Notes under the pieces: model-generated
The model's input: only the letters and a program-made list of their open reading frames with translations
What the model was told of the DNA's origin: nothing
Database searches by the model: none
Made by a program: the position numbers and the translations under genes
In this document: one piece after another, positions 2,460-18,789 of the stretch
Layout of the letters: every line of letters begins with the position of its first letter
Numbering within the stretch: position 1 is the stretch's first letter
Source: an uncultured archaeon
GTDB taxonomy: Archaea; Asgardarchaeota; Thorarchaeia; Thorarchaeales; CAZPUN01
Length of the DNA stretch: 32,000 nucleotides
Assembly: GCA_964589775.1 (NCBI GenBank)
Contig: CAZPUN010000055.1
Location: 5,677 to 37,676 of the forward strand
Direction: 5' to 3'

Positions 2460-3515
2460 ATGACCTTGGCGAAAGTAGGAATAGTAGGCTATGGAGCATA
2501 CGTTCCAAGATTTAGGATCAAAGCCGAGGAGATTGCGAAAGTCTGGGGCAAAGATGGCAAAGCGATTTCTTCAGGTTTGGGATTGATTGAGAAGTCAGTT
2601 CCGGACATTGACGAAGACGCTGCCACAATTGCCGTTGAGGCTGCTAGAAATGCTGTAAAGCATGCAGGCATTGATCCTAATAAAATTGGAGCGGTATATG
2701 TAGGTTCCGAATCACACCCCTACGCTGTAAAACCAACTGCTACAATAGTAATTGAGGCACTTGGAATTTCTGGCAAGGATATAACTGCAGCAGACTATGA
2801 GTTCGCATGCAAGGCAGGAACTGCTGCAATTCAAACGAACATGGGCCTTGTACAATCTGGAATGATTGAGATGGGACTTGCAATTGGAGCGGACACATCG
2901 CAAGGACGCCCCGGAGACGCTCTTGAGTTTTCAGCGGCTGCTGGTGGTGCTGCATTTATCATTGGAAAGGAAGATTTAGTAGCTGAAATTCAGGGAACAT
3001 ATTCATTTACGACAGATACTCCAGACTTCTGGAGAAGAGAAGGCGCTGATTTTCCAAAGCACGGCGCAAGATTCACAGGCAAGCCTGCATACTTCAGACA
3101 CATTACTGAAGCTGCAAAGGGCTTGATGGAAAAGATGGGAACGACTCCTGAAGATTATGATTTCTTTGTACCACATCAACCAAATGGTAAATTCCCAATG
3201 AGAGTTTCCAAGATGCTTGGATTCCCCAAGGAGAAAGTAGAACCCTCATTGATGGTTAGATACATTGGAAATACATATTCCGGTTCTTCAGTTGTTGGAC
3301 TTTCTGCAGTTCTTGACATTGCAAAGCCCGGCCAGAGGATCTTAATGACCTCATTCGGTTCCGGAGCAGGAAGTGATGCATTCGATATATTAGTCACAGA
3401 TAAAATCGAAGAGAAAAGAGGCAGAGTTCCAACTGTAAAATATTACGTGGATCGCAAGAAATACATCGACTACGGTACCTACGTGAAGAACCGCAGGAAG
3501 CTAAAGTCACTTTAA
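2460..3515 (+). CDS. Archaeal hydroxymethylglutaryl-CoA synthase
   Basis: [12 protein letters not shown], catalytic [23 protein letters not shown] and SFGSGAGSD. Start moved to ATG 2460 (AAGGAAG upstream). First gene of the canonical HMGS-thiolase-DUF35 cluster. Confidence 0.97.
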
Positions 3516-3527
3516 GGGGGTCAGAAA

Positions 3528-4691
3528 ATGGTAGGTAGAAAAGTTGCCGTTATTGGTACTGGAATGACAAAATTCGGAGAATTATGGGACAAGTCTCTTC
3601 GAGATATTGCCCTTGAAGCTGCAATTAATGCAATTAACGATTCTGGTGTTGAAGGAAAAGATATTGATGCACTCTATATCGGAAACATGAGTGCTGGTAG
3701 ATTTACTGGTCAGGAACACCTCGGAGCTCTTGCTGCAGATATGGGTGGTCTTCGCGGAATACCCGCTACGAGAGTCGAGGGTGCCTGTGCAAGTGGAAGC
3801 TTAGCGATACGAGAAGCATTTCTCGGTATTAAGGCAGGATTATATGATGTTGTTCTAGTTCTCGGTGCTGAAAAAATGACTGATGTCAGTGGCGAGCAAG
3901 CAACTACAACGCTCGGTGCTGCTGCAGATCAGATGTGGGAACTACAATTTGGTGCTACATTCCCATCACTTTACGCTATGATGGCTCGCTATCACATGCA
4001 CAAGTATGGTTCCACTATTGAACAACTAAGCAAAATTGCTGTAAAATCTCATGAAATGGGCGCTTTGAACCCATATGCACAATTCAGAATGAAGGTTTCA
4101 TTAGAGGCTGTAATGAATTCCACACCAGTTGCTGACCCCCTGAGAATCCTGCACTGCTCTCCCATCACAGATGGCGCAAGTGCTGTTGTTCTCGCAAGTG
4201 AGGAAGTCGCAAAGAAATTCACAGATGAACCGATCTGGATTGTAGGTTCTGCTTTAGCAACTGACACTTTGGCTCTTCATGACCGTGAAGATTTAGCCTC
4301 AGTTTGGGCAGCTAAAAAGGCAGCAAAAGAAGCATACAAGATGGCAGGTGTCACAGTCGATGATATTAACATCTTTGAAGTTCATGATTGCTTCTCAAAC
4401 GCAGAACTAATGGCGTATGAGGATCTCGGAATCACTCCAAAAGGACAAGGTGGAAAAGCAATCGATGAGGGCATAGTTACTCGGCATGGAGACAAACCTG
4501 TAAACATGAGTGGTGGTCTAAAAGCAAAGGGTCATCCAGTCGGTGCAACTGGCGTCGCTCAGATTGCAGAAATTACAACCCAACTTAGAGGTAAAGCTGG
4601 CGAACGTCAGATACCCGATGTGGAAATTGGACTGACTCATAATGTTGGTGGCTCAGGAGCCACTGCGGTAATCCACATATTGAGGAGGTAA
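3528..4691 (+). CDS. Acetoacetyl-CoA thiolase (archaeal SCP2-like type)
   Basis: VEGACASG (catalytic Cys), EVHDCF, GHPVGATG and HNVGG; RBS GGGGGT; 12 nt after the HMGS stop. Confidence 0.97.
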   Translation: MVGRKVAVIGTGMTKFGELWDKSLRDIALEAAINAINDSGVEGKDIDALYIGNMSAGRFTGQEHLGALAADMGGLRGIPATRVEGACASGSLAIREAFLGIKAGLYDVVLVLGAEKMTDVSGEQATTTLGAAADQMWELQFGATFPSLYAMMARYHMHKYGSTIEQLSKIAVKSHEMGALNPYAQFRMKVSLEAVMNSTPVADPLRILHCSPITDGASAVVLASEEVAKKFTDEPIWIVGSALATDTLALHDREDLASVWAAKKAAKEAYKMAGVTVDDINIFEVHDCFSNAELMAYEDLGITPKGQGGKAIDEGIVTRHGDKPVNMSGGLKAKGHPVGATGVAQIAEITTQLRGKAGERQIPDVEIGLTHNVGGSGATAVIHILRR

Positions 4692-9729: not shown

Positions 9730-12700
9730 TCACTTTTTCCGTTTCAAAACAACTACGATTATTACGAATATGACACCTACAATTACTGCAGCAGATATCA
9801 AATCTCTCGCACTTAAATTGAATTCTCCTGTTGTGCCGCTTGATGATGATGAACTTGCAGGATTCTGAGCAGTAACATATGCCACAAAGGCAGGATCATT
9901 GTCTATAGACTTACCGTCCCAGTGACTAAATCCTGTACTCATGAATAACATGTTTGCGTTCACAGTCCAAGTCGTAATGGATTCTGATGTACTACTCTGA
10001 TACATTGCACTGAATGCACCTACTGGAGCCGTCGAAGAGCCTGTAGAGTACGTCTTACCATCTTTACCCCAGACGTAAGTTGCACCACCCATTTGAACTT
10101 CAGCGAATGGTGTGTTATTCGCTCCGAACTGATAGGTGTTTGCTGAGATGCTTCCCATATTTGTATCATCAATTGGACGATTTCCTGCGCTATATTGAGT
10201 TCGAGTAGCCGAGCCTAGCACACCAAAATATGTAATTGCCAAGCTACGATTCTCTAAGACTGAATTATCAAAGTGATGCAAGTTCCAGTTTCCAATATAC
10301 TGATCGACTTTCAACGAAACTTCATGGTTCCAAGTTGCAGGGTTATTGGGATCAAACTGTGAAATATCAACTGAGAAATGAACCATAAATGAGATCTTAT
10401 CAATGGAAGCGGTTTCGATGTAATAATCAAAATTGGCAGGATCCAATCCATATACCGCACCACTGGTCTGTCTTAGGTCCCAAGCTCCTGTAATCGCTTC
10501 AGTTCCTTGCATTCGAATAGGATAGAGCGTACCGTTAATGTTTAGGAGTTCGACACCAAAATTGACTTGAGTGTCTGCGGATACATTTACGTTTCCGTAA
10601 GTTTGATTACTATCAAATGGCAGCGTGAATTTGATCTTTCCAACTTTATCAATTGTAAAGTAGTGCGTGACTTCGCTGGTTTTAATCATTCCATCTTCTA
10701 CGGTAAAGTCGGGAGCTCCTGGAGATGCTTCTGTAGCATTATCCTTGAATAATAGGAATCCAGCAAATTCGGCTCTGAAGAATGCCCACTGCTTCGATAC
10801 GTTGTTTATGGCAGTGAGGAAGTACTGACTTGTTCCAAATCCGAACCAAGACCATTCCCAGTGATTCGCAGGTTGGTCCCCAATTTGGACTTCAAGAGTC
10901 TTATTTACTGTAAGCCATGCAATGTATTCATATCCGGGATTAGGCGATTTATTTGTTTGATTTGCCCATACGATTTGGCGAATTCTATTAAGTTCTGTAG
11001 AATTCACTGGAGTCATATCTGATGCATGATACCAGTAGAATGTCTCAGTTGCATTAAAGTCCATACTAAATGTTACTAAGCCCATCCAATTATCAGATCT
11101 AAACTCATCACCTTGAAATTCAGGAGATGGATCAAACATTAGTTTCACGAGTAATGCTGTTTTGTTCACATGAACGATGTCGTTCCATGTACCGACACGC
11201 TGCACAAAGTACTGGTCTGCAGTCGTGTGAATATCGCCATCAAGATCTAAAGCACCATCTTCGGTGACTGTCCAGTGTTGTGGCTCCCACGTACGAGGAT
11301 TACCAATCATGAATGTAGGTGGCAAGAATATCGTTTTTTCATTGAAAATAACTCCACCAATTGATGACATTTTCTTAGTCCAGTCCATTGGGAGATACAT
11401 AGGCTTTACATAGTATGCCTCACTTCTCTTGCCAGTAAGTGTAAATCTATCGATAATGGCTTCTGTAGCATTTTCTGTGAACTTTATTCGTGTTGTTATC
11501 CTTGAAAAATCAGATGTCATGCTAATGGACGCCTTTTGAGCAATAATTGGATTAGTTAGAATGTAATTCTCTTTAAATATTAGAGCTCCGGTGCGTCTCA
11601 GATATATCTCTTTGGTAACATCACCATATGTAGTTACATTACCACTTTCAAAATCAATTGTTATGGAATATCGTACCTTATTAACTATGACATGAGTGTC
11701 ATTTACTATTTGTGAATGACCTAGCATTGTGTATGTAATATTGTACTGCTTAACTTCGTATTTGATTAATAATCCAGGATATTGAGACATTGTGAAAATA
11801 ATGGAACCATTAATTAATTCACTTCTTGCATATACATCCAGTGAGATATTCATCCATTCATTTATTCCGATACTTCTAATTAGGTCACCCGTTTCGGATT
11901 CCAGTCTTGCCTGAATTGCAAGGTCACCAAATGCTAAGGACAATCCATGTTGTTTGATCGCATAGCTAGGAAGAGCATGCTTTAGCTTCTGTGTGACAAC
12001 GCGACCAAGATTCACATCTACGTGGAATACAGTTCCATAACTATATAGTTCCCAGGAGGCATCAACTGCAGAAGTCAGATATCCACCCCATTGAACTACT
12101 GTCTGGTCTGAGCTTGCAAATGTAAATGTATTATTGACTACAAAATAATCCTCAACGTGCAACGTACTATTTTCAATTACTTTGAGGTTTACTTGCCAGA
12201 AGCCACCATATTTATTTTCGGTCCATGTCCAATAAATACTAGGATAGCCTACAAGAACGCGTGGACCAATGGATGCATTATACTCGTAGAACAATGATGG
12301 TAATACCTCAAAGCTAGCATGCTTCCATGTTGTATCTTTATCTGTAAGACTCGCAGGTATATCAACAGACAGTTCGTAATAGTATGAGGTATTATGAATA
12401 ATCTCTCCGAGATCAAATATCGCATATGAAATTGGCTCATTACATGAGATTTTGAATACAAAGGTCTGATTTACATCAGTATAGAAAATATGGTCTCCAT
12501 TTGTATCATAAAATCCTGCATCATAATATACTGGATATAGCCATTCGGTAAACGGAACAGCCATGCCAACTCCAATTGGTGGTGTTCTAAATCGTCCATT
12601 TTTAATAGATGCAAGCCAGCTTGGTCTTAGAATCATACCATTTGAGTCTGTGATTTTAAGCTCAGTCCAGAATACGGACGCTGGCACTTGAGATGTAAAT

Positions 12701-13230
12701 CTAAGAACAAAGGTACAATTATAATCGTTAGTTCCTTCATGATAGGCACTCATATCAGAACTAAATTCGATTACTGAGATCTGAACTTGGTCATTTGTAT
12801 TTCGTCTATATGCAAAACTAGCATCAACCCACCTCTGAGAGGTAACGTTGTAGCTTAGCATAAATACCATAACCATGCTTTCCGTCGGTGCATAACCCCA
12901 GAACTTTATCAATTCGGGTGTTGCTCCGGAAGGCATGTAATTCTTTGGAATTAGAACTTCAATTGCGATCCACATACTGGGATCAACTTTAAAATCATTC
13001 TCCATAATATTCGTTCCATTTAAATATTTGGCAGTCACAGATGGCTGAGGACCAAACATCCATCGAGAATTTGAATAACTGTGTGTATGATCTTCAACTC
13101 CATTGATATACTGCCATTGGACATTAATATATGGAGAACTCTCATTTTGAGCGGTGCTAATAACGGGTGCATTTACCAGCATGGTCAAAAATAAAATGCT
13201 GATTAACAGACCCATACTTATTTTTCTCAT
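9730..13230 (-). CDS. Large secreted, C-terminally membrane-anchored surface glycoprotein
   Basis: Signal peptide MRKISMGLLISILFLTMLVNAPVISTA, beta-rich body with many N-x-S/T sequons, SSSSSSGTTG linker, and C-terminal TM ending LKRKK. Confidence 0.88.
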   Translation of the reverse strand: MRKISMGLLISILFLTMLVNAPVISTAQNESSPYINVQWQYINGVEDHTHSYSNSRWMFGPQPSVTAKYLNGTNIMENDFKVDPSMWIAIEVLIPKNYMPSGATPELIKFWGYAPTESMVMVFMLSYNVTSQRWVDASFAYRRNTNDQVQISVIEFSSDMSAYHEGTNDYNCTFVLRFTSQVPASVFWTELKITDSNGMILRPSWLASIKNGRFRTPPIGVGMAVPFTEWLYPVYYDAGFYDTNGDHIFYTDVNQTFVFKISCNEPISYAIFDLGEIIHNTSYYYELSVDIPASLTDKDTTWKHASFEVLPSLFYEYNASIGPRVLVGYPSIYWTWTENKYGGFWQVNLKVIENSTLHVEDYFVVNNTFTFASSDQTVVQWGGYLTSAVDASWELYSYGTVFHVDVNLGRVVTQKLKHALPSYAIKQHGLSLAFGDLAIQARLESETGDLIRSIGINEWMNISLDVYARSELINGSIIFTMSQYPGLLIKYEVKQYNITYTMLGHSQIVNDTHVIVNKVRYSITIDFESGNVTTYGDVTKEIYLRRTGALIFKENYILTNPIIAQKASISMTSDFSRITTRIKFTENATEAIIDRFTLTGKRSEAYYVKPMYLPMDWTKKMSSIGGVIFNEKTIFLPPTFMIGNPRTWEPQHWTVTEDGALDLDGDIHTTADQYFVQRVGTWNDIVHVNKTALLVKLMFDPSPEFQGDEFRSDNWMGLVTFSMDFNATETFYWYHASDMTPVNSTELNRIRQIVWANQTNKSPNPGYEYIAWLTVNKTLEVQIGDQPANHWEWSWFGFGTSQYFLTAINNVSKQWAFFRAEFAGFLLFKDNATEASPGAPDFTVEDGMIKTSEVTHYFTIDKVGKIKFTLPFDSNQTYGNVNVSADTQVNFGVELLNINGTLYPIRMQGTEAITGAWDLRQTSGAVYGLDPANFDYYIETASIDKISFMVHFSVDISQFDPNNPATWNHEVSLKVDQYIGNWNLHHFDNSVLENRSLAITYFGVLGSATRTQYSAGNRPIDDTNMGSISANTYQFGANNTPFAEVQMGGATYVWGKDGKTYSTGSSTAPVGAFSAMYQSSTSESITTWTVNANMLFMSTGFSHWDGKSIDNDPAFVAYVTAQNPASSSSSSGTTGEFNLSARDLISAAVIVGVIFVIIVVVLKRKK

Positions 13231-17039: not shown

Positions 17040-17244
17040 CCTGTGCTTTTCTTCCTTTTCTTCATGATCTTAAAATACCATATTATACAGCGAAATAATA
17101 AAATTTTGTAAAATACGTTTATTTTAGATATATTTGAAAATACCAATTATAATAAAAAGGTTCTACAAAAAAACAAATCTATCATAAATCTTTTATTTGA
17201 AAAAGACTATCAGAATGCAAATTAAATAAAGGGGGCTTGTCCTT

Positions 17245-18789
17245 ATGAAAGGCTTCAAAGACCTATACAAAGAAGTAATAAAAGGTGGACTTTTCTCAGA
17301 AGGACATTGCTCGGTCTGTGGTGCATGTATTACAGTGTGCCCGTTGAATTTGTTATCATTCAGGAAGGAATCATTCTTTACACCCGGAGAAGAAAACCAC
17401 ATAGATAAAAAAGAAGTTAAAGAGGTATTCGCAAAATGCATCGATTGTGGTTTATGTTATGCAGCATGTCCTGAATTGAATTTCAATCTGAGACAAGCCG
17501 AAGAGCACAAATTCGGGTCTTTTGAATATACTGAGTTTGGTTATACTTTGAAAACGTTAGCCGCCCGGTCCACTGACCGAAGGCTATCCGAAAATGGTCA
17601 ATCTGGAGGTGTGATTACTACACTCCTAAAATACGTACTTGAAAACGATATCGTAGATGGCGTAATAACAACTGTGGAAGATGAAAATAACCCATGGAAA
17701 CCAATTCCTGTATTAATTACAAAAGATGAAATTGACATATTATATAAAACCCAAAAGTCGAAATATTTTCCATCCGCTACACTAACTGCACTACAAGATG
17801 CAAAGAAAAGGAAGATCAATAAGGTTGCAATTGTTGTATTACCTTGCCAACAACATGCGATTTCCAAAATGGCGATTAATAAAACATTCAAAAATTGGAT
17901 AGATCGCATTAGTTTTTCAATAGGCGTATTTTGTCTGGGAACTTATTGGACTGGCGAATTTTACGACTGGCTGAAAAAGAAGCATAAACTTGAACCACAG
18001 CAAATAAAGAAGATGTATTATGACTTTGAGAACTTTATTATCATTACTGAAGATAATAAAAAGATTATCGAAAAACGTGATGACATGTATTCTCTAACCA
18101 GAGGAAGTTGTAGAATCTGTGAAGACTTTACGAATGTGCTCGCAGACATTGCTGTAGGTGAAATTGCTACACCAGAAGGCTGGTCCACCGTAATTGTACG
18201 ATCCAATAAAGGGAAGGAAATCATAGAAGGAGCCATTCATAAGGACTACCTTTATACAAAACCATTAAGTCAGGAAGAACTCCGAATCGCCTCAGAAGTT
18301 GCAAAACTCAAATACGAATATCACGTATCCAAAAAGTTGTTCAAACTCGATTACGAAACATTCAAACGAAAATACTTGTTGATCGAACTTCCCACGGCAG
18401 AATCTGAAGGAATGCTTATGTTAAACATAATAGCAAAAAACGGCATTGATTTATATTCTGCTCGATTTGAAGAAATTAATAATATAGATGATACTCTTAT
18501 CGCAGGAGCACTATCTGCAATTCTTCAGTTCTCTAAAACAGTATTCAGTCGAAATGTCAATAACATAGACTTAGGAGATATGAATGTAATCGTTCGGAGT
18601 AGTGAGAATTTTACAATTGTTGCGGCAGTACGAAAAGGCTCAAAAGTCGAAAAGGACCAGAAAATATTCGATGAAATTTTGAAAGAACTTGAAAGTTCAG
18701 GAATTTCAAAACAAGTAGAAAATCTGATAGATACGTCCAAGATAGAAAATGAAATAGATAAAATCGTTCGGAAATTCTTCATAATATAG
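17245..18789 (+). CDS. FrhB/FdhB-family (F420-dependent oxidoreductase beta subunit) protein with 2[4Fe-4S] domain, fused to a C-terminal longin/roadblock-like domain
   Basis: CSVCGACITVCP, CIDCGLCYAACP, GQSGGVITTLL, PCQ, IGVFC, CRICEDF and ADIAVG; residues ~390-514 show the Asgard longin-like pattern (IIAKNGIDLY...DDTLIAGALSAILQF). Confidence 0.88.
   Translation: MKGFKDLYKEVIKGGLFSEGHCSVCGACITVCPLNLLSFRKESFFTPGEENHIDKKEVKEVFAKCIDCGLCYAACPELNFNLRQAEEHKFGSFEYTEFGYTLKTLAARSTDRRLSENGQSGGVITTLLKYVLENDIVDGVITTVEDENNPWKPIPVLITKDEIDILYKTQKSKYFPSATLTALQDAKKRKINKVAIVVLPCQQHAISKMAINKTFKNWIDRISFSIGVFCLGTYWTGEFYDWLKKKHKLEPQQIKKMYYDFENFIIITEDNKKIIEKRDDMYSLTRGSCRICEDFTNVLADIAVGEIATPEGWSTVIVRSNKGKEIIEGAIHKDYLYTKPLSQEELRIASEVAKLKYEYHVSKKLFKLDYETFKRKYLLIELPTAESEGMLMLNIIAKNGIDLYSARFEEINNIDDTLIAGALSAILQFSKTVFSRNVNNIDLGDMNVIVRSSENFTIVAAVRKGSKVEKDQKIFDEILKELESSGISKQVENLIDTSKIENEIDKIVRKFFII

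What the first reader, a model, noticed from the sequence alone, without database searches (positions are those of the whole stretch)
17245..18789. FrhB-family flavin/Fe-S protein fused to a longin/roadblock-like eukaryotic-signature domain
Seen: complete ferredoxin plus FrhB motifs over ~360 aa, a linker, then ~125 aa (18412-18789) with beta-hairpin IIAKNGIDLY, helix DDTLIAGALSAILQFSKTVF, three strands and terminal helices. No frhA/frhG or fdhA partner is adjacent. Known: FrhB binds FAD and F420; longin and roadblock domains are small-GTPase (Rag/Rab) platform, GEF or GAP modules expanded in Asgard archaea. Inference: a redox/F420 sensor wired directly into GTPase signalling, i.e. a primitive metabolic-state input analogous to Rag/TORC1 nutrient sensing. 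I know of no description of this architecture.
Basis: partly seen in the sequence, partly recalled or inferred. Interest (0 to 1): 0.75.

Follow-up and report, generated by a model that had tools for sequence, protein, structure and literature searches.

The report
Iron-sulfur flavoenzyme fused to longin domain
An Asgard archaeon encodes a complete FrhB-type iron-sulfur flavoprotein that ends in a true longin domain (the fold eukaryotes use to dock small GTPases); the fusion is real, old and undescribed in the papers I could search, but nothing yet shows that it talks to a GTPase or uses F420 in this organism.

Summary
Window 17245-18789 (+) is one 514-aa ORF: a 2x[4Fe-4S] ferredoxin domain, FrhB_N and FrhB_C (Pfam 9e-21, 7e-36), then a 125-aa tail.

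The tail is a longin domain. An alignment-based AlphaFold model (pLDDT 86) has the beta-beta-alpha-beta-beta-beta-alpha-alpha topology. It matches Ccz1, AP sigma, Fuzzy, BLOC-3 and VAMP7 longins at Z 10.5-11.7; roadblocks score lower (7.5-9.2).

The fusion is not an artefact. At least eight other distinct sequences from independent assemblies carry it (Thor-related, Heimdall-labelled and Asgardarchaeum MAGs). All 12 cluster cysteines are invariant. Seven FrhB cores form a starred clade; the Asgardarchaeum abyssi copy sits beside it on a long branch.

- No GTPase gene lies on this contig. The 23 longin paralogs of this genome are not clustered with its 24 small GTPases.
- One relative has a Ras-family gene downstream.
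- I found CofE but not CofG, CofH, CofD, Mtd or Mer-type genes here, so F420 use is doubtful.
- The sister clade carries a CBS pair at the same position, and the closest solved relative has its dimerisation extension there.

I therefore favour a docking or regulatory tail on an active oxidoreductase over a redox sensor driving a GTPase. The same stretch was flagged before in this scan (e1-5597131). This is a new variant of known kinds, of moderate interest.

The parts
17040..17244 (+). Intergenic leader between nadB and the fusion gene: T-rich run after the nadB stop, AT-rich stretch, GGGGG ribosome-binding site 8 nt before the ATG. The gene probably has its own promoter (inference).
   Evidence: sequence read directly; the sigma-70 scan is not informative for an archaeon
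17245..18789 (+). Whole ORF, 514 aa plus stop: ferredoxin, FrhB, linker helix and longin
   Evidence: full-length homologs
17305..17475 (+). 2x[4Fe-4S] ferredoxin domain (residues 21-77). The two CxxCxxCxxxCP motifs use C22/25/28/32 and C65/68/71/75, all invariant in 8 fusion proteins.
17557..17793 (+). FrhB_FdhB_N (residues 105-183), including the invariant Q119-x-G121-G122 motif
   Evidence: E 9.2e-21
17818..18273 (+). FrhB_FdhB_C (residues 192-343). C201, C230, C289 and C292 are invariant and align with cysteines of the solved F420-reductase subunit 8riu_B.
   Evidence: E 6.7e-36; alignment
18274..18411 (+). Helical C-terminal extension and linker (residues 344-389). It corresponds in position to the homodimerising C-terminal extension (350-370) of the closest solved relative.
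   Evidence: PMC11493965
18412..18786 (+). Longin domain (residues 390-514), beta-beta-alpha-beta-beta-beta-alpha-alpha, of the Asgard Fuz/Mon1-like longin family

Best explanation
The gene encodes a stand-alone, cofactor-complete electron-transfer flavoprotein of the FrhB/FpoF type (two ferredoxin-type [4Fe-4S] clusters, one FrhB [4Fe-4S], FAD). Its C-terminus carries a single longin domain that acts as a pairing and docking module.

Shown here:
- the domain order;
- the longin fold;
- invariance of all cluster ligands;
- the age and near-monophyly of the fusion;
- that the same C-terminal position holds a dimerisation extension in the closest solved relative and a CBS pair in the sister clade.

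Inferred: the longin tail pairs with a second longin or roadblock domain. That partner is either its own copy (a homodimer) or one of the 22 other paralogs in this genome, most similar in sequence to the tails of TPR-longin proteins. The pair would form the usual two-lobed platform. Through that platform the oxidoreductase is assembled, positioned or switched by a partner, possibly a small GTPase.

In this reading the enzyme is the regulated or recruited part, not the sensor. Its electron carrier in this organism is unknown. F420 is plausible in the Heimdall-labelled relatives that encode CofG, CofD and CofE, and doubtful here.
For: - Fold: VIA-align Z 11.7 to Ccz1 (126 residues aligned, rmsd 3.3), then 11.3-10.2 to AP sigma/mu, BLOC-3, Fuzzy, VAMP7, Sec22 and TRAPP. 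All 50 listed hits are longin or roadblock. Foldseek agrees.
- Active redox module: 12 Cys and the QxGG motif are invariant across 8 fusions that are down to 27% identical. The ferredoxin and FrhB parts are better conserved than the tail.
- C-terminus as the accessory site: in 8RIU the zeta subunit has a ferredoxin domain at 1-83, an F420-reductase domain at 84-349 and a C-terminal extension at 350-370 that makes the homodimer (PMC11493965). 8riu_B and 8rja_E are the best PDB hits at about E 1e-43.
- Sister clade: Fer4+FrhB+2xCBS proteins, also 502-514 aa.
- Modular use of the longin family: it is fused in this genome to TackOD1, wHTH, TPR, a Zn finger and a Ras-like GTPase.
- No fixed operon partner in five different contexts. 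This fits a self-contained enzyme.
Against: Homodimerisation alone would explain the data equally well. If the FrhB part were only an enzyme needing a dimer contact, the short helical extension seen in 8RIU would suffice, so the gain of a 125-aa longin domain hints at something more specific that I cannot name. The electron donor and acceptor are unknown.
Confidence: 0.45

Rival explanations
1. Redox sensor driving a GTPase. The reduction state of the FAD/Fe-S module changes the conformation or pairing of the longin domain, which then acts as (part of) a GEF or GAP for an Asgard small GTPase. Metabolic redox state would be reported to GTPase signalling, much as longin-containing GATOR1 and FLCN-FNIP report nutrients to Rag GTPases.
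For: - The best structural matches are the catalytic longin domains of Rab GEFs: Mon1-Ccz1, Fuzzy-Inturned and BLOC-3.
- 7 of 29 family members give sub-threshold Fuz_longin_1 hits.
- The same longin family is fused to Ras-like GTPases: P0010, own C21:15390-16259, and an Atlas cluster of 376 members.
- In Ca. Asgardarchaeum abyssi a Ras-family gene lies 560 nt downstream on the same strand.
- Other Asgard FrhB modules are fused to a wHTH domain, as sensors often are.
Against: - No GTPase on this contig.
- Longin paralogs are not clustered with GTPases: 1 of 23 within 5 kb against 2.4 expected, p 0.92.
- GTPase adjacency appears in one lineage out of five contexts. I estimate roughly a 10% chance of that by accident, given about 24 GTPases in about 2000 genes.
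- There is a single longin domain, not the tri-longin or longin-DENN architectures of known GEFs and GAPs.
- The CBS-fused sister clade suggests the tail is the input and the enzyme the output.
Confidence: 0.2
2. Plain homodimerisation or stability module. The longin domain only replaces the short dimerising extension of related FrhB modules, and has no link to GTPases or signalling.
For: - Longin and roadblock domains are dimeric platforms (PMC10933270).
- A solved Lokiarchaeota longin domain is a dimer (8yqg).
- The C-terminal extension of the closest solved relative makes the homodimer.
- There is no conserved gene neighbour.
Against: An unfused group of 368-378 aa sits in an unresolved three-way split with the fused proteins and manages without the tail. 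The tail has been kept over deep divergence, down to 17-30% identity, with conserved G400 and Y404. That suggests a specific partner surface.
Confidence: 0.2
3. Allosteric ligand-binding domain. The tail binds a small molecule or peptide and tunes the enzyme, as the CBS pair presumably does in the sister clade.
For: The CBS pair occupies the same position in the sister clade. Look-alike domains are fused to receiver domains in Thermoplasmatota and to OmpA in bacteria.
Against: From general knowledge, I know of no small-molecule ligand for longin domains. All strong structural matches are protein-protein platforms.
Confidence: 0.08
4. Artefact: two genes joined by misassembly or a sequencing error.
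For: One 2-kb metagenome contig (L065) has the FrhB and longin parts in separate reading frames.
Against: At least eight other distinct uninterrupted fusion ORFs come from independent assemblies (NCBI, JGI, ENA, Logan), at 27-81% identity. The linker is conserved in the closest relative (86%).
Confidence: 0.02

Closest known systems
F420-reductase subunits of the CODH/ACDS and formylmethanofuran dehydrogenase complexes of Ca. Ethanoperedens thermophilum (PDB 8RIU chain B, 8RJA chain E; PMC11493965)
   Same: Same N-terminal 2x[4Fe-4S] ferredoxin domain plus FrhB-type [4Fe-4S]/FAD domain. They are the best PDB sequence matches at about E 1e-43, over residues 1-357 (8rja_E) and 63-357 (8riu_B). 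The cluster cysteines align. The 8RIU zeta subunit carries an oligomerisation element at the C-terminus.
   Different: Those subunits are 359-370 aa, end in a short helical extension, and are plugged into large catabolic complexes encoded nearby. Here the tail is a 125-aa longin domain, and no CODH or Fwd partner gene is adjacent.
FrhB of F420-reducing [NiFe] hydrogenase (PDB 3ZFS/4OMF) and FpoF/FqoF of F420H2 dehydrogenase
   Same: Pfam FrhB_FdhB_N and FrhB_FdhB_C are matched with strong scores. NCBIfam hits are 1e-54 and 3e-36.
   Different: Scores lie below the NCBIfam equivalog cut-offs (185.6 against 269; 125 against 475). No frhA/frhG or fpo genes are nearby. F420 biosynthesis was not found in this genome.
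Longin domain 1 of tri-longin Rab GEFs (Mon1-Ccz1, Fuzzy-Inturned/CPLANE, HPS1-HPS4/BLOC-3)
   Same: These are the best structural matches (Z 10.4-11.7, about 125 residues aligned). Relatives of the tail give sub-threshold Fuz_longin_1 and Intu_longin_1 Pfam hits.
   Different: There is one longin domain, not three. Sequence identity is 10-14%. No partner subunit or GTPase has been identified, and GEF activity is untested.
Asgard longin and roadblock multidomain proteins (Liu et al., bioRxiv 10.1101/2020.10.19.343400; Tran et al. 2024, PMC10933270)
   Same: This is the same phenomenon: ESP-type longin domains shuffled onto prokaryotic domains. Examples are longin-GTPase fusions and longin fused to two-component-related domains. 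This genome has longin-TackOD1, longin-wHTH and TPR-longin.
   Different: Neither paper mentions a fusion to FrhB (no occurrence in either main text) or to any other redox enzyme in the longin and fusion passages I read. Public annotation of a fused relative (MGQ4914774.1) names only the FrhB part.
Fer4-FrhB-CBS-pair proteins (P0066; L060:12162-13703)
   Same: This is the sister clade of the longin-fused FrhBs. It has the same length class (502-514 aa) and the same logic of an accessory domain on the C-terminus.
   Different: The accessory domain is a CBS pair. From general knowledge, CBS pairs are adenosyl-ligand sensors, whereas longin is a protein-docking fold.

Membership tests
FrhB/FdhB family (Pfam PF04422 + PF04432) | Both Pfam domains matched above their gathering scores | tested here: met
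   74.2 bits (cut-off 22) and 123.9 bits (cut-off 23.3)
FrhB/FdhB family (Pfam PF04422 + PF04432) | Four cysteines for the FrhB [4Fe-4S] cluster and a flavin-site glycine motif | tested here: met
   C201, C230, C289, C292 and Q119/G121/G122 are invariant in 8 fusions. The cysteines align with those of 8riu_B. Their role as ligands is taken from the solved relatives.
F420-reducing hydrogenase beta subunit / FpoF (NCBIfam equivalogs) | Score above the equivalog cut-off | tested here: not met
   TIGR03289 154.5 against 331.5; NF040616 125.2 against 475; PRK09325 185.6 against 269
F420-reducing hydrogenase beta subunit / FpoF (NCBIfam equivalogs) | Partner genes (frhA/frhG, fpo, fdhA) adjacent | tested here: not met
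   The neighbours are nadB and a PIN-like ORF. NiFe large-subunit hits lie on contigs C7, C8 and C18.
F420-dependent enzyme | The organism can make or use F420 | tested here: inconclusive
   CofE is present (212.9 bits). There are no hits for CofG, CofH, CofD, Mtd or Bac_luciferase in a 96.75%-complete genome. f9 relatives with the fusion do encode CofG, CofD and CofE. Uptake of the cofactor cannot be excluded.
Longin domain | beta-beta-alpha-beta-beta-beta-alpha-alpha topology, with no N-terminal helix and a C-terminal helix packed on the sheet | tested here: met
   DSSP of the pLDDT-86 model. Longin matches span residues 18-144 of the 144-residue model, including both C-terminal helices.
Longin domain | Structural similarity to solved longin domains well above background | tested here: met
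   Z 10.2-11.7 to Ccz1, AP sigma/mu, Fuzzy, HPS, VAMP7, Sec22 and Bet5/Trs23. The tool's stated background for a best hit is Z 7-8.
Longin domain | Sequence-profile membership (Pfam longin families) | tested here: inconclusive
   No hit for this protein. Relatives hit Fuz_longin_1 below threshold: 7 of 29, best 8.9e-4. The own paralog L045 scores 25.0 bits against a cut-off of 26.1.
Longin domain | Binds a small GTPase or forms a dimeric platform | not testable with these tools
   No multimer prediction or assay was available.
Roadblock/LC7 (MglB, LAMTOR, DYNLRB) | alpha-beta-beta-alpha-beta-beta-beta topology with an N-terminal helix | tested here: not met
   The model has no helix before strand 1. 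Roadblock matches score lower (Z 7.5-9.2) and cover only residues about 5-120.
Tri-longin Rab GEF (Mon1-Ccz1 type) | Three tandem longin domains forming a heterodimer | tested here: not met
   A single longin domain follows the FrhB module.
Rag/Ragulator/GATOR-like nutrient-sensing module | Genomic or physical association with a Rag-like GTPase (GTPase plus C-terminal roadblock) | tested here: not met
   No GTPase on the contig. The only adjacent GTPase in a relative is a 176-aa Ras-family protein without a roadblock tail.

The most novel reading that the evidence does not exclude
The FrhB-longin protein is a redox-gated regulator (GEF, GAP or effector) of an Asgard small GTPase. That would be a direct, single-polypeptide link between the cell's electron-carrier pool and eukaryote-type GTPase signalling, and a prokaryotic functional analogue of longin-based nutrient sensing upstream of Rag/TORC1.
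Probability: 0.15. Interest if true: 0.85.

Novelty: new variant of a known kind. Interest (0 to 1): 0.5.

Why it matters
Asgard genomes hold dozens of longin and roadblock domains and small GTPases. Almost none has a known partner or input, because the genes are rarely in operons (PMC10933270).

A longin domain welded to an enzyme with strong spectroscopic and activity read-outs (FAD, three Fe-S clusters) gives a tractable entry point. One can ask what the tail binds and whether binding depends on redox state.

If the tail binds a GTPase, this would be the first concrete metabolic input or output for the Asgard GTPase network. If it only dimerises the enzyme, that shows longin domains served as generic pairing modules before eukaryotes recruited them for trafficking.

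The finding also corrects public annotation, which names these proteins only as F420 hydrogenase beta subunits.

Tried and rejected
- Single-sequence AlphaFold of the whole protein gave an unusable model (pLDDT 36).
- A sequence profile of the tail against PDB sequences found nothing meaningful (best E 0.3, designed proteins). Only fold comparison worked.
I could therefore not read the 47-kb, 69-kb and 24-kb contigs that carry P0063, a P0003-cluster member and P0075. These are the best untapped contexts.
- I looked for a conserved operon partner and found none. The neighbours differ in every fusion locus: nadB/PIN-like, GNAT/CheC-like, PLC-like, TPR and DRG GTPase, PmbA/TldD and Ras, Ig-like/PIN.
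- The two downstream PIN-like ORFs, here and beside P0007, are unrelated.
- The TPR protein upstream of the Heimdall-labelled copy has no detectable longin tail.
- I tested whether the FrhB proteins of about 500 and about 917 aa in the large family f22 carry the same tail. They do not: they have an N-terminal extension or a GltD/SudA-type fusion.
- The sigma-70 promoter scan is uninformative for an archaeon.
- Literature searches for Asgard+longin+FrhB and for longin+F420 gave nothing relevant.
- I did not verify the earlier scan notes about FrhB/Rag-GTPase/arrestin trios in other Asgard lineages.
Full report
**The gene.** Window 17245-18789 (+) is one uninterrupted 514-aa ORF. It is preceded by a 206-nt AT-rich spacer that holds a T-rich run after the nadB stop codon and a GGGGG ribosome-binding site. 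It probably has its own promoter; that is inference.

Pfam finds two 4Fe-4S ferredoxin motifs (residues 21-77), FrhB_FdhB_N (105-183, E 9.2e-21) and FrhB_FdhB_C (192-343, E 6.7e-36). NCBIfam places it near FrhB and FpoF but below every equivalog cut-off. It is therefore a member of the FrhB family but not an orthologue of a named enzyme.

The neighbours are L-aspartate oxidase NadB upstream (744 bits against a cut-off of 629) and a weak PIN-like ORF on the opposite strand downstream. The remaining nearby genes are unrelated:
- a DsbD/thioredoxin pair;
- PEBP;
- a DNA-alkylation repair protein;
- a GlcD-like oxidase;
- a P-type ATPase;
- a radical-SAM protein.

[NiFe] hydrogenase large-subunit hits lie on three other contigs.

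**The tail is a longin domain.** Residues 375-514 have no Pfam match. A full HMMER search of 1.84 billion representatives gave 60 relatives. I aligned 28 relatives with the tail: 25 of those hits and three own-genome paralogs (A1).

AlphaFold2 on A1 gave a confident model (pLDDT 85.9, pTM 0.79) with the order strand-strand-helix-strand-strand-strand-helix-helix.

An all-against-48,161-chains structural search returned only longin and roadblock proteins among its 50 listed hits:

| Match | Z |
|---|---|
| Ccz1 longin domain (126 residues aligned, rmsd 3.3) | 11.7 |
| AP-3 sigma | 11.3 |
| AP-4 mu N-terminal domain | 11.0 |
| BLOC-3 | 10.9 |
| Fuzzy | 10.7 |
| VAMP7 longin | 10.6 |
| Sec22, TRAPP Bet5/Trs23/sedlin, SRX | 8.7-10.2 |
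| Roadblocks (MglB, LAMTOR, Asgard roadblocks) | 7.5-9.2 |

The roadblock matches cover only the first 120 or so residues. Foldseek agrees.

There is no helix before strand 1, and two helices follow strand 5, so the domain is longin rather than roadblock. Sequence evidence points the same way but stays below threshold:
- 7 of 29 family members hit Fuz_longin_1, 2 hit Intu_longin_1 and 1 hits Robl_LC7.
- One paralog in this genome scores 25.0 bits against the Fuz_longin_1 cut-off of 26.1.
- The ESM Atlas look-alikes include clusters labelled Roadblock/LAMTOR2 or carrying Fuz_longin_1, and longin-like tails on Arf/Ras GTPases, V4R and receiver domains.

**The fusion is real and old.** Uninterrupted fusion ORFs occur in:
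- P0003 (81% identical; its cluster includes two NCBI contigs of 69 and 16 kb);
- P0004, P0007 and P0063 (NCBI MGQ4914774.1; its cluster includes a Ca. Asgardarchaeum californiense record);
- two Heimdallarchaeota-labelled MAGs, plus a third cut off by a contig end;
- Ca. Asgardarchaeum abyssi.

Across eight fusions that are as little as 27% identical, all eight ferredoxin cysteines, the four FrhB-cluster cysteines (C201, C230, C289, C292) and the Q119-x-G121-G122 motif are invariant. The cysteines align with those of the solved relative 8riu_B. Identity to the window protein falls from 93% to 32% in the ferredoxin part, from 82% to 31% in FrhB, and from 69% to 17% in the longin part. The tail evolves fastest but is kept.

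In a maximum-likelihood tree of FrhB cores, all fusions group together (98/94 support) to the exclusion of the unfused FrhBs of the same order and of the large family f22. After adding metagenome relatives, seven fusions form a starred clade. That clade, the long-branched Asgardarchaeum abyssi fusion and an unfused group of 368-378 aa form an unresolved three-way split. A single origin of the fusion is not excluded, and the unfused group may have lost the tail. Sister to all of them is a clade of Fer4-FrhB proteins that end in a CBS pair (Pfam).

One 2-kb contig (L065) has the two parts in different frames. I read this as a sequencing error or a local split, not as evidence against the fusion.

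**Distribution is patchy.**
- Among 400 genomes of the phylum, the fusion is in this genome's family (sole representative), in family f9 (3 of 3) and in family f3 (1 of 1). None of the 86 f2 genomes of the same order matched at the E 1e-45 filter. In the 40 of them searched without that filter, the FrhB homologs stop at about residue 360.
- Among the 83 genomes of f9's class, it is only in f9.
- Earlier scan notes call this genome a Thorarchaeote, and the nearest Atlas cluster agrees. I did not place it phylogenetically myself.

**What the longin family does in this genome.** A profile of the tail finds 23 ORFs at E <= 1e-5. Their architectures include:
- longin-TackOD1;
- longin-wHTH;
- TPR-longin (the tail's closest non-FrhB relatives);
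- longin with a C1-like zinc finger;
- longin with a Ras-like GTPase;
- six proteins of about 360 aa with an unknown N-terminal part;
- one 1640-aa protein.

The genome also encodes 24 Ras-superfamily GTPases at E <= 1e-10. The two sets are not co-located: 1 of 23 longin genes lies within 5 kb of a GTPase gene, against 2.4 expected from random ORFs. This matches what Tran et al. report for MK-D1. None of the GTPase hits is on the window's contig.

Among the five different contexts of fusion genes, only the Asgardarchaeum abyssi locus (seen in two samples) has a Ras-family gene. It is 176 aa and lies 560 nt downstream on the same strand. With about 24 GTPases in about 2000 genes, I estimate roughly a one-in-ten chance of that across five loci, so it is a weak hint.

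**Cofactor question.** The closest solved relatives are F420 reductase modules (PMC11493965). In this 96.75%-complete genome I found CofE (212.9 bits) but no CofG, CofH, CofD, Mtd or luciferase-like hit. The f9 genomes that carry the fusion do encode CofG, CofD and CofE. G041 encodes CofD and CofE. F420 is therefore a reasonable ancestral substrate but unproven here. The safe statement is 'Fe-S flavoprotein of the FrhB type'.

**Mechanism.** In 8RIU the homologous subunit has three parts: a ferredoxin domain (1-83), an F420-reductase domain (84-349) and a C-terminal extension that makes the homodimer (350-370). Our protein continues from that same point into the longin domain, and the sister clade continues into a CBS pair. 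Three different accessory elements at one site argue that the C-terminus is where this enzyme family receives its assembly or regulatory module. From general knowledge, CBS pairs in other enzymes are the sensing part and the enzyme is the output.

I therefore favour (0.45) an active oxidoreductase whose longin tail pairs with another longin or roadblock domain. The tail would place the enzyme under the control, or at the location, of a partner that may be a small GTPase.

| Reading | Confidence | Note |
|---|---|---|
| Docking or regulatory tail on an active enzyme | 0.45 | favoured |
| Plain homodimerisation | 0.20 | cannot be excluded |
| Ligand-binding allosteric domain | 0.08 | no known precedent for longin |
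| Assembly artefact | 0.02 | excluded by independent sequences |

**Novelty.** Longin domains, their expansion in Asgard archaea and their promiscuous fusion to prokaryotic signalling domains are already described. FrhB modules as plug-in electron-transfer units are also described. Their combination is not mentioned in the papers I could search, and public annotation misses the longin part. It is a new variant of known kinds.

The same stretch was flagged by this scan in another reading (e1-5597131). Other notes report FrhB genes beside Rag-like GTPases in other Asgard lineages. I did not test those, so they are leads only.

Noticed in passing
L060:12162-13703 (-), and protein P0066: Fer4 + FrhB_N + FrhB_C + two CBS domains, 502-514 aa. 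These form the sister clade of the longin-fused FrhBs. It is an FrhB-type enzyme with a CBS-pair (Bateman) module at the position where the longin sits.
   Followed up: partly
L022:1135-2550 (+) (genome G155): A winged-helix DNA-binding domain fused to Fer4 + FrhB (472 aa). It is a candidate redox-responsive transcription factor built on the same enzyme family.
   Followed up: no
L021:127-2877 (-) and L021:2861-3742 (-); L023:1021-2517 and 2529-3653: In the large Asgard family f22, FrhB is fused to a GltD/SudA-type NAD(P)H flavoprotein (917 aa) next to a DHODB-type FAD/NAD Fe-S protein. Elsewhere FrhB carries a 160-aa N-terminal extension and is followed by a second FrhB gene.
   Followed up: partly
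Own genome: C15:11268-12473, C28:6044-6649, C34:1747-3759, C32:2385-4379, C48:32629-33942, C21:15390-16259, C56:46192-48364, C39:40100-45019: There are 23 paralogs of this longin family in a 2.16-Mb genome. Examples: longin-TackOD1, longin-wHTH, two TPR-longin proteins, longin with a C1-like zinc finger, and longin with a Ras-like GTPase. There is also a tandem pair from a group of six proteins of about 360 aa with an unknown N-terminal part, and one 1640-aa protein.
   Followed up: partly
Own genome C23:147609-148298 (-): A CofE (F420 gamma-glutamyl ligase) homologue scores above its cut-off, while CofG, CofH, CofD, Mtd and luciferase-like genes were not found. Either the cofactor is scavenged or CofE has another role.
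   Followed up: partly
L049:5420-7811 (+) (Ca. Asgardarchaeum abyssi; the same arrangement is in L066): A Ras-family GTPase (176 aa) lies 560 nt downstream of the FrhB-longin gene. It is followed by two tightly packed genes of about 312 aa, the first with no Pfam match and the second with only a weak sub-threshold NeuB hit.
   Followed up: partly
window 9730-13230 (-) and 27578-31993 (-): Two very large ORFs (1166 and 1471 aa) have no Pfam or NCBIfam match.
   Followed up: no
L065:631-1836 (+): A 2-kb metagenome contig on which the FrhB and longin parts of a fusion relative lie in separate reading frames. This is either a frameshift error or a genuinely split gene.
   Followed up: no
L059:7951-11077 and L063:7198-11077: The unfused closest relatives (368-375 aa) keep an ArsR-type HTH gene and a Na/Ca-exchanger-family membrane protein nearby. 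In L059 the exchanger gene ends 13 nt before the FrhB gene.
   Followed up: partly
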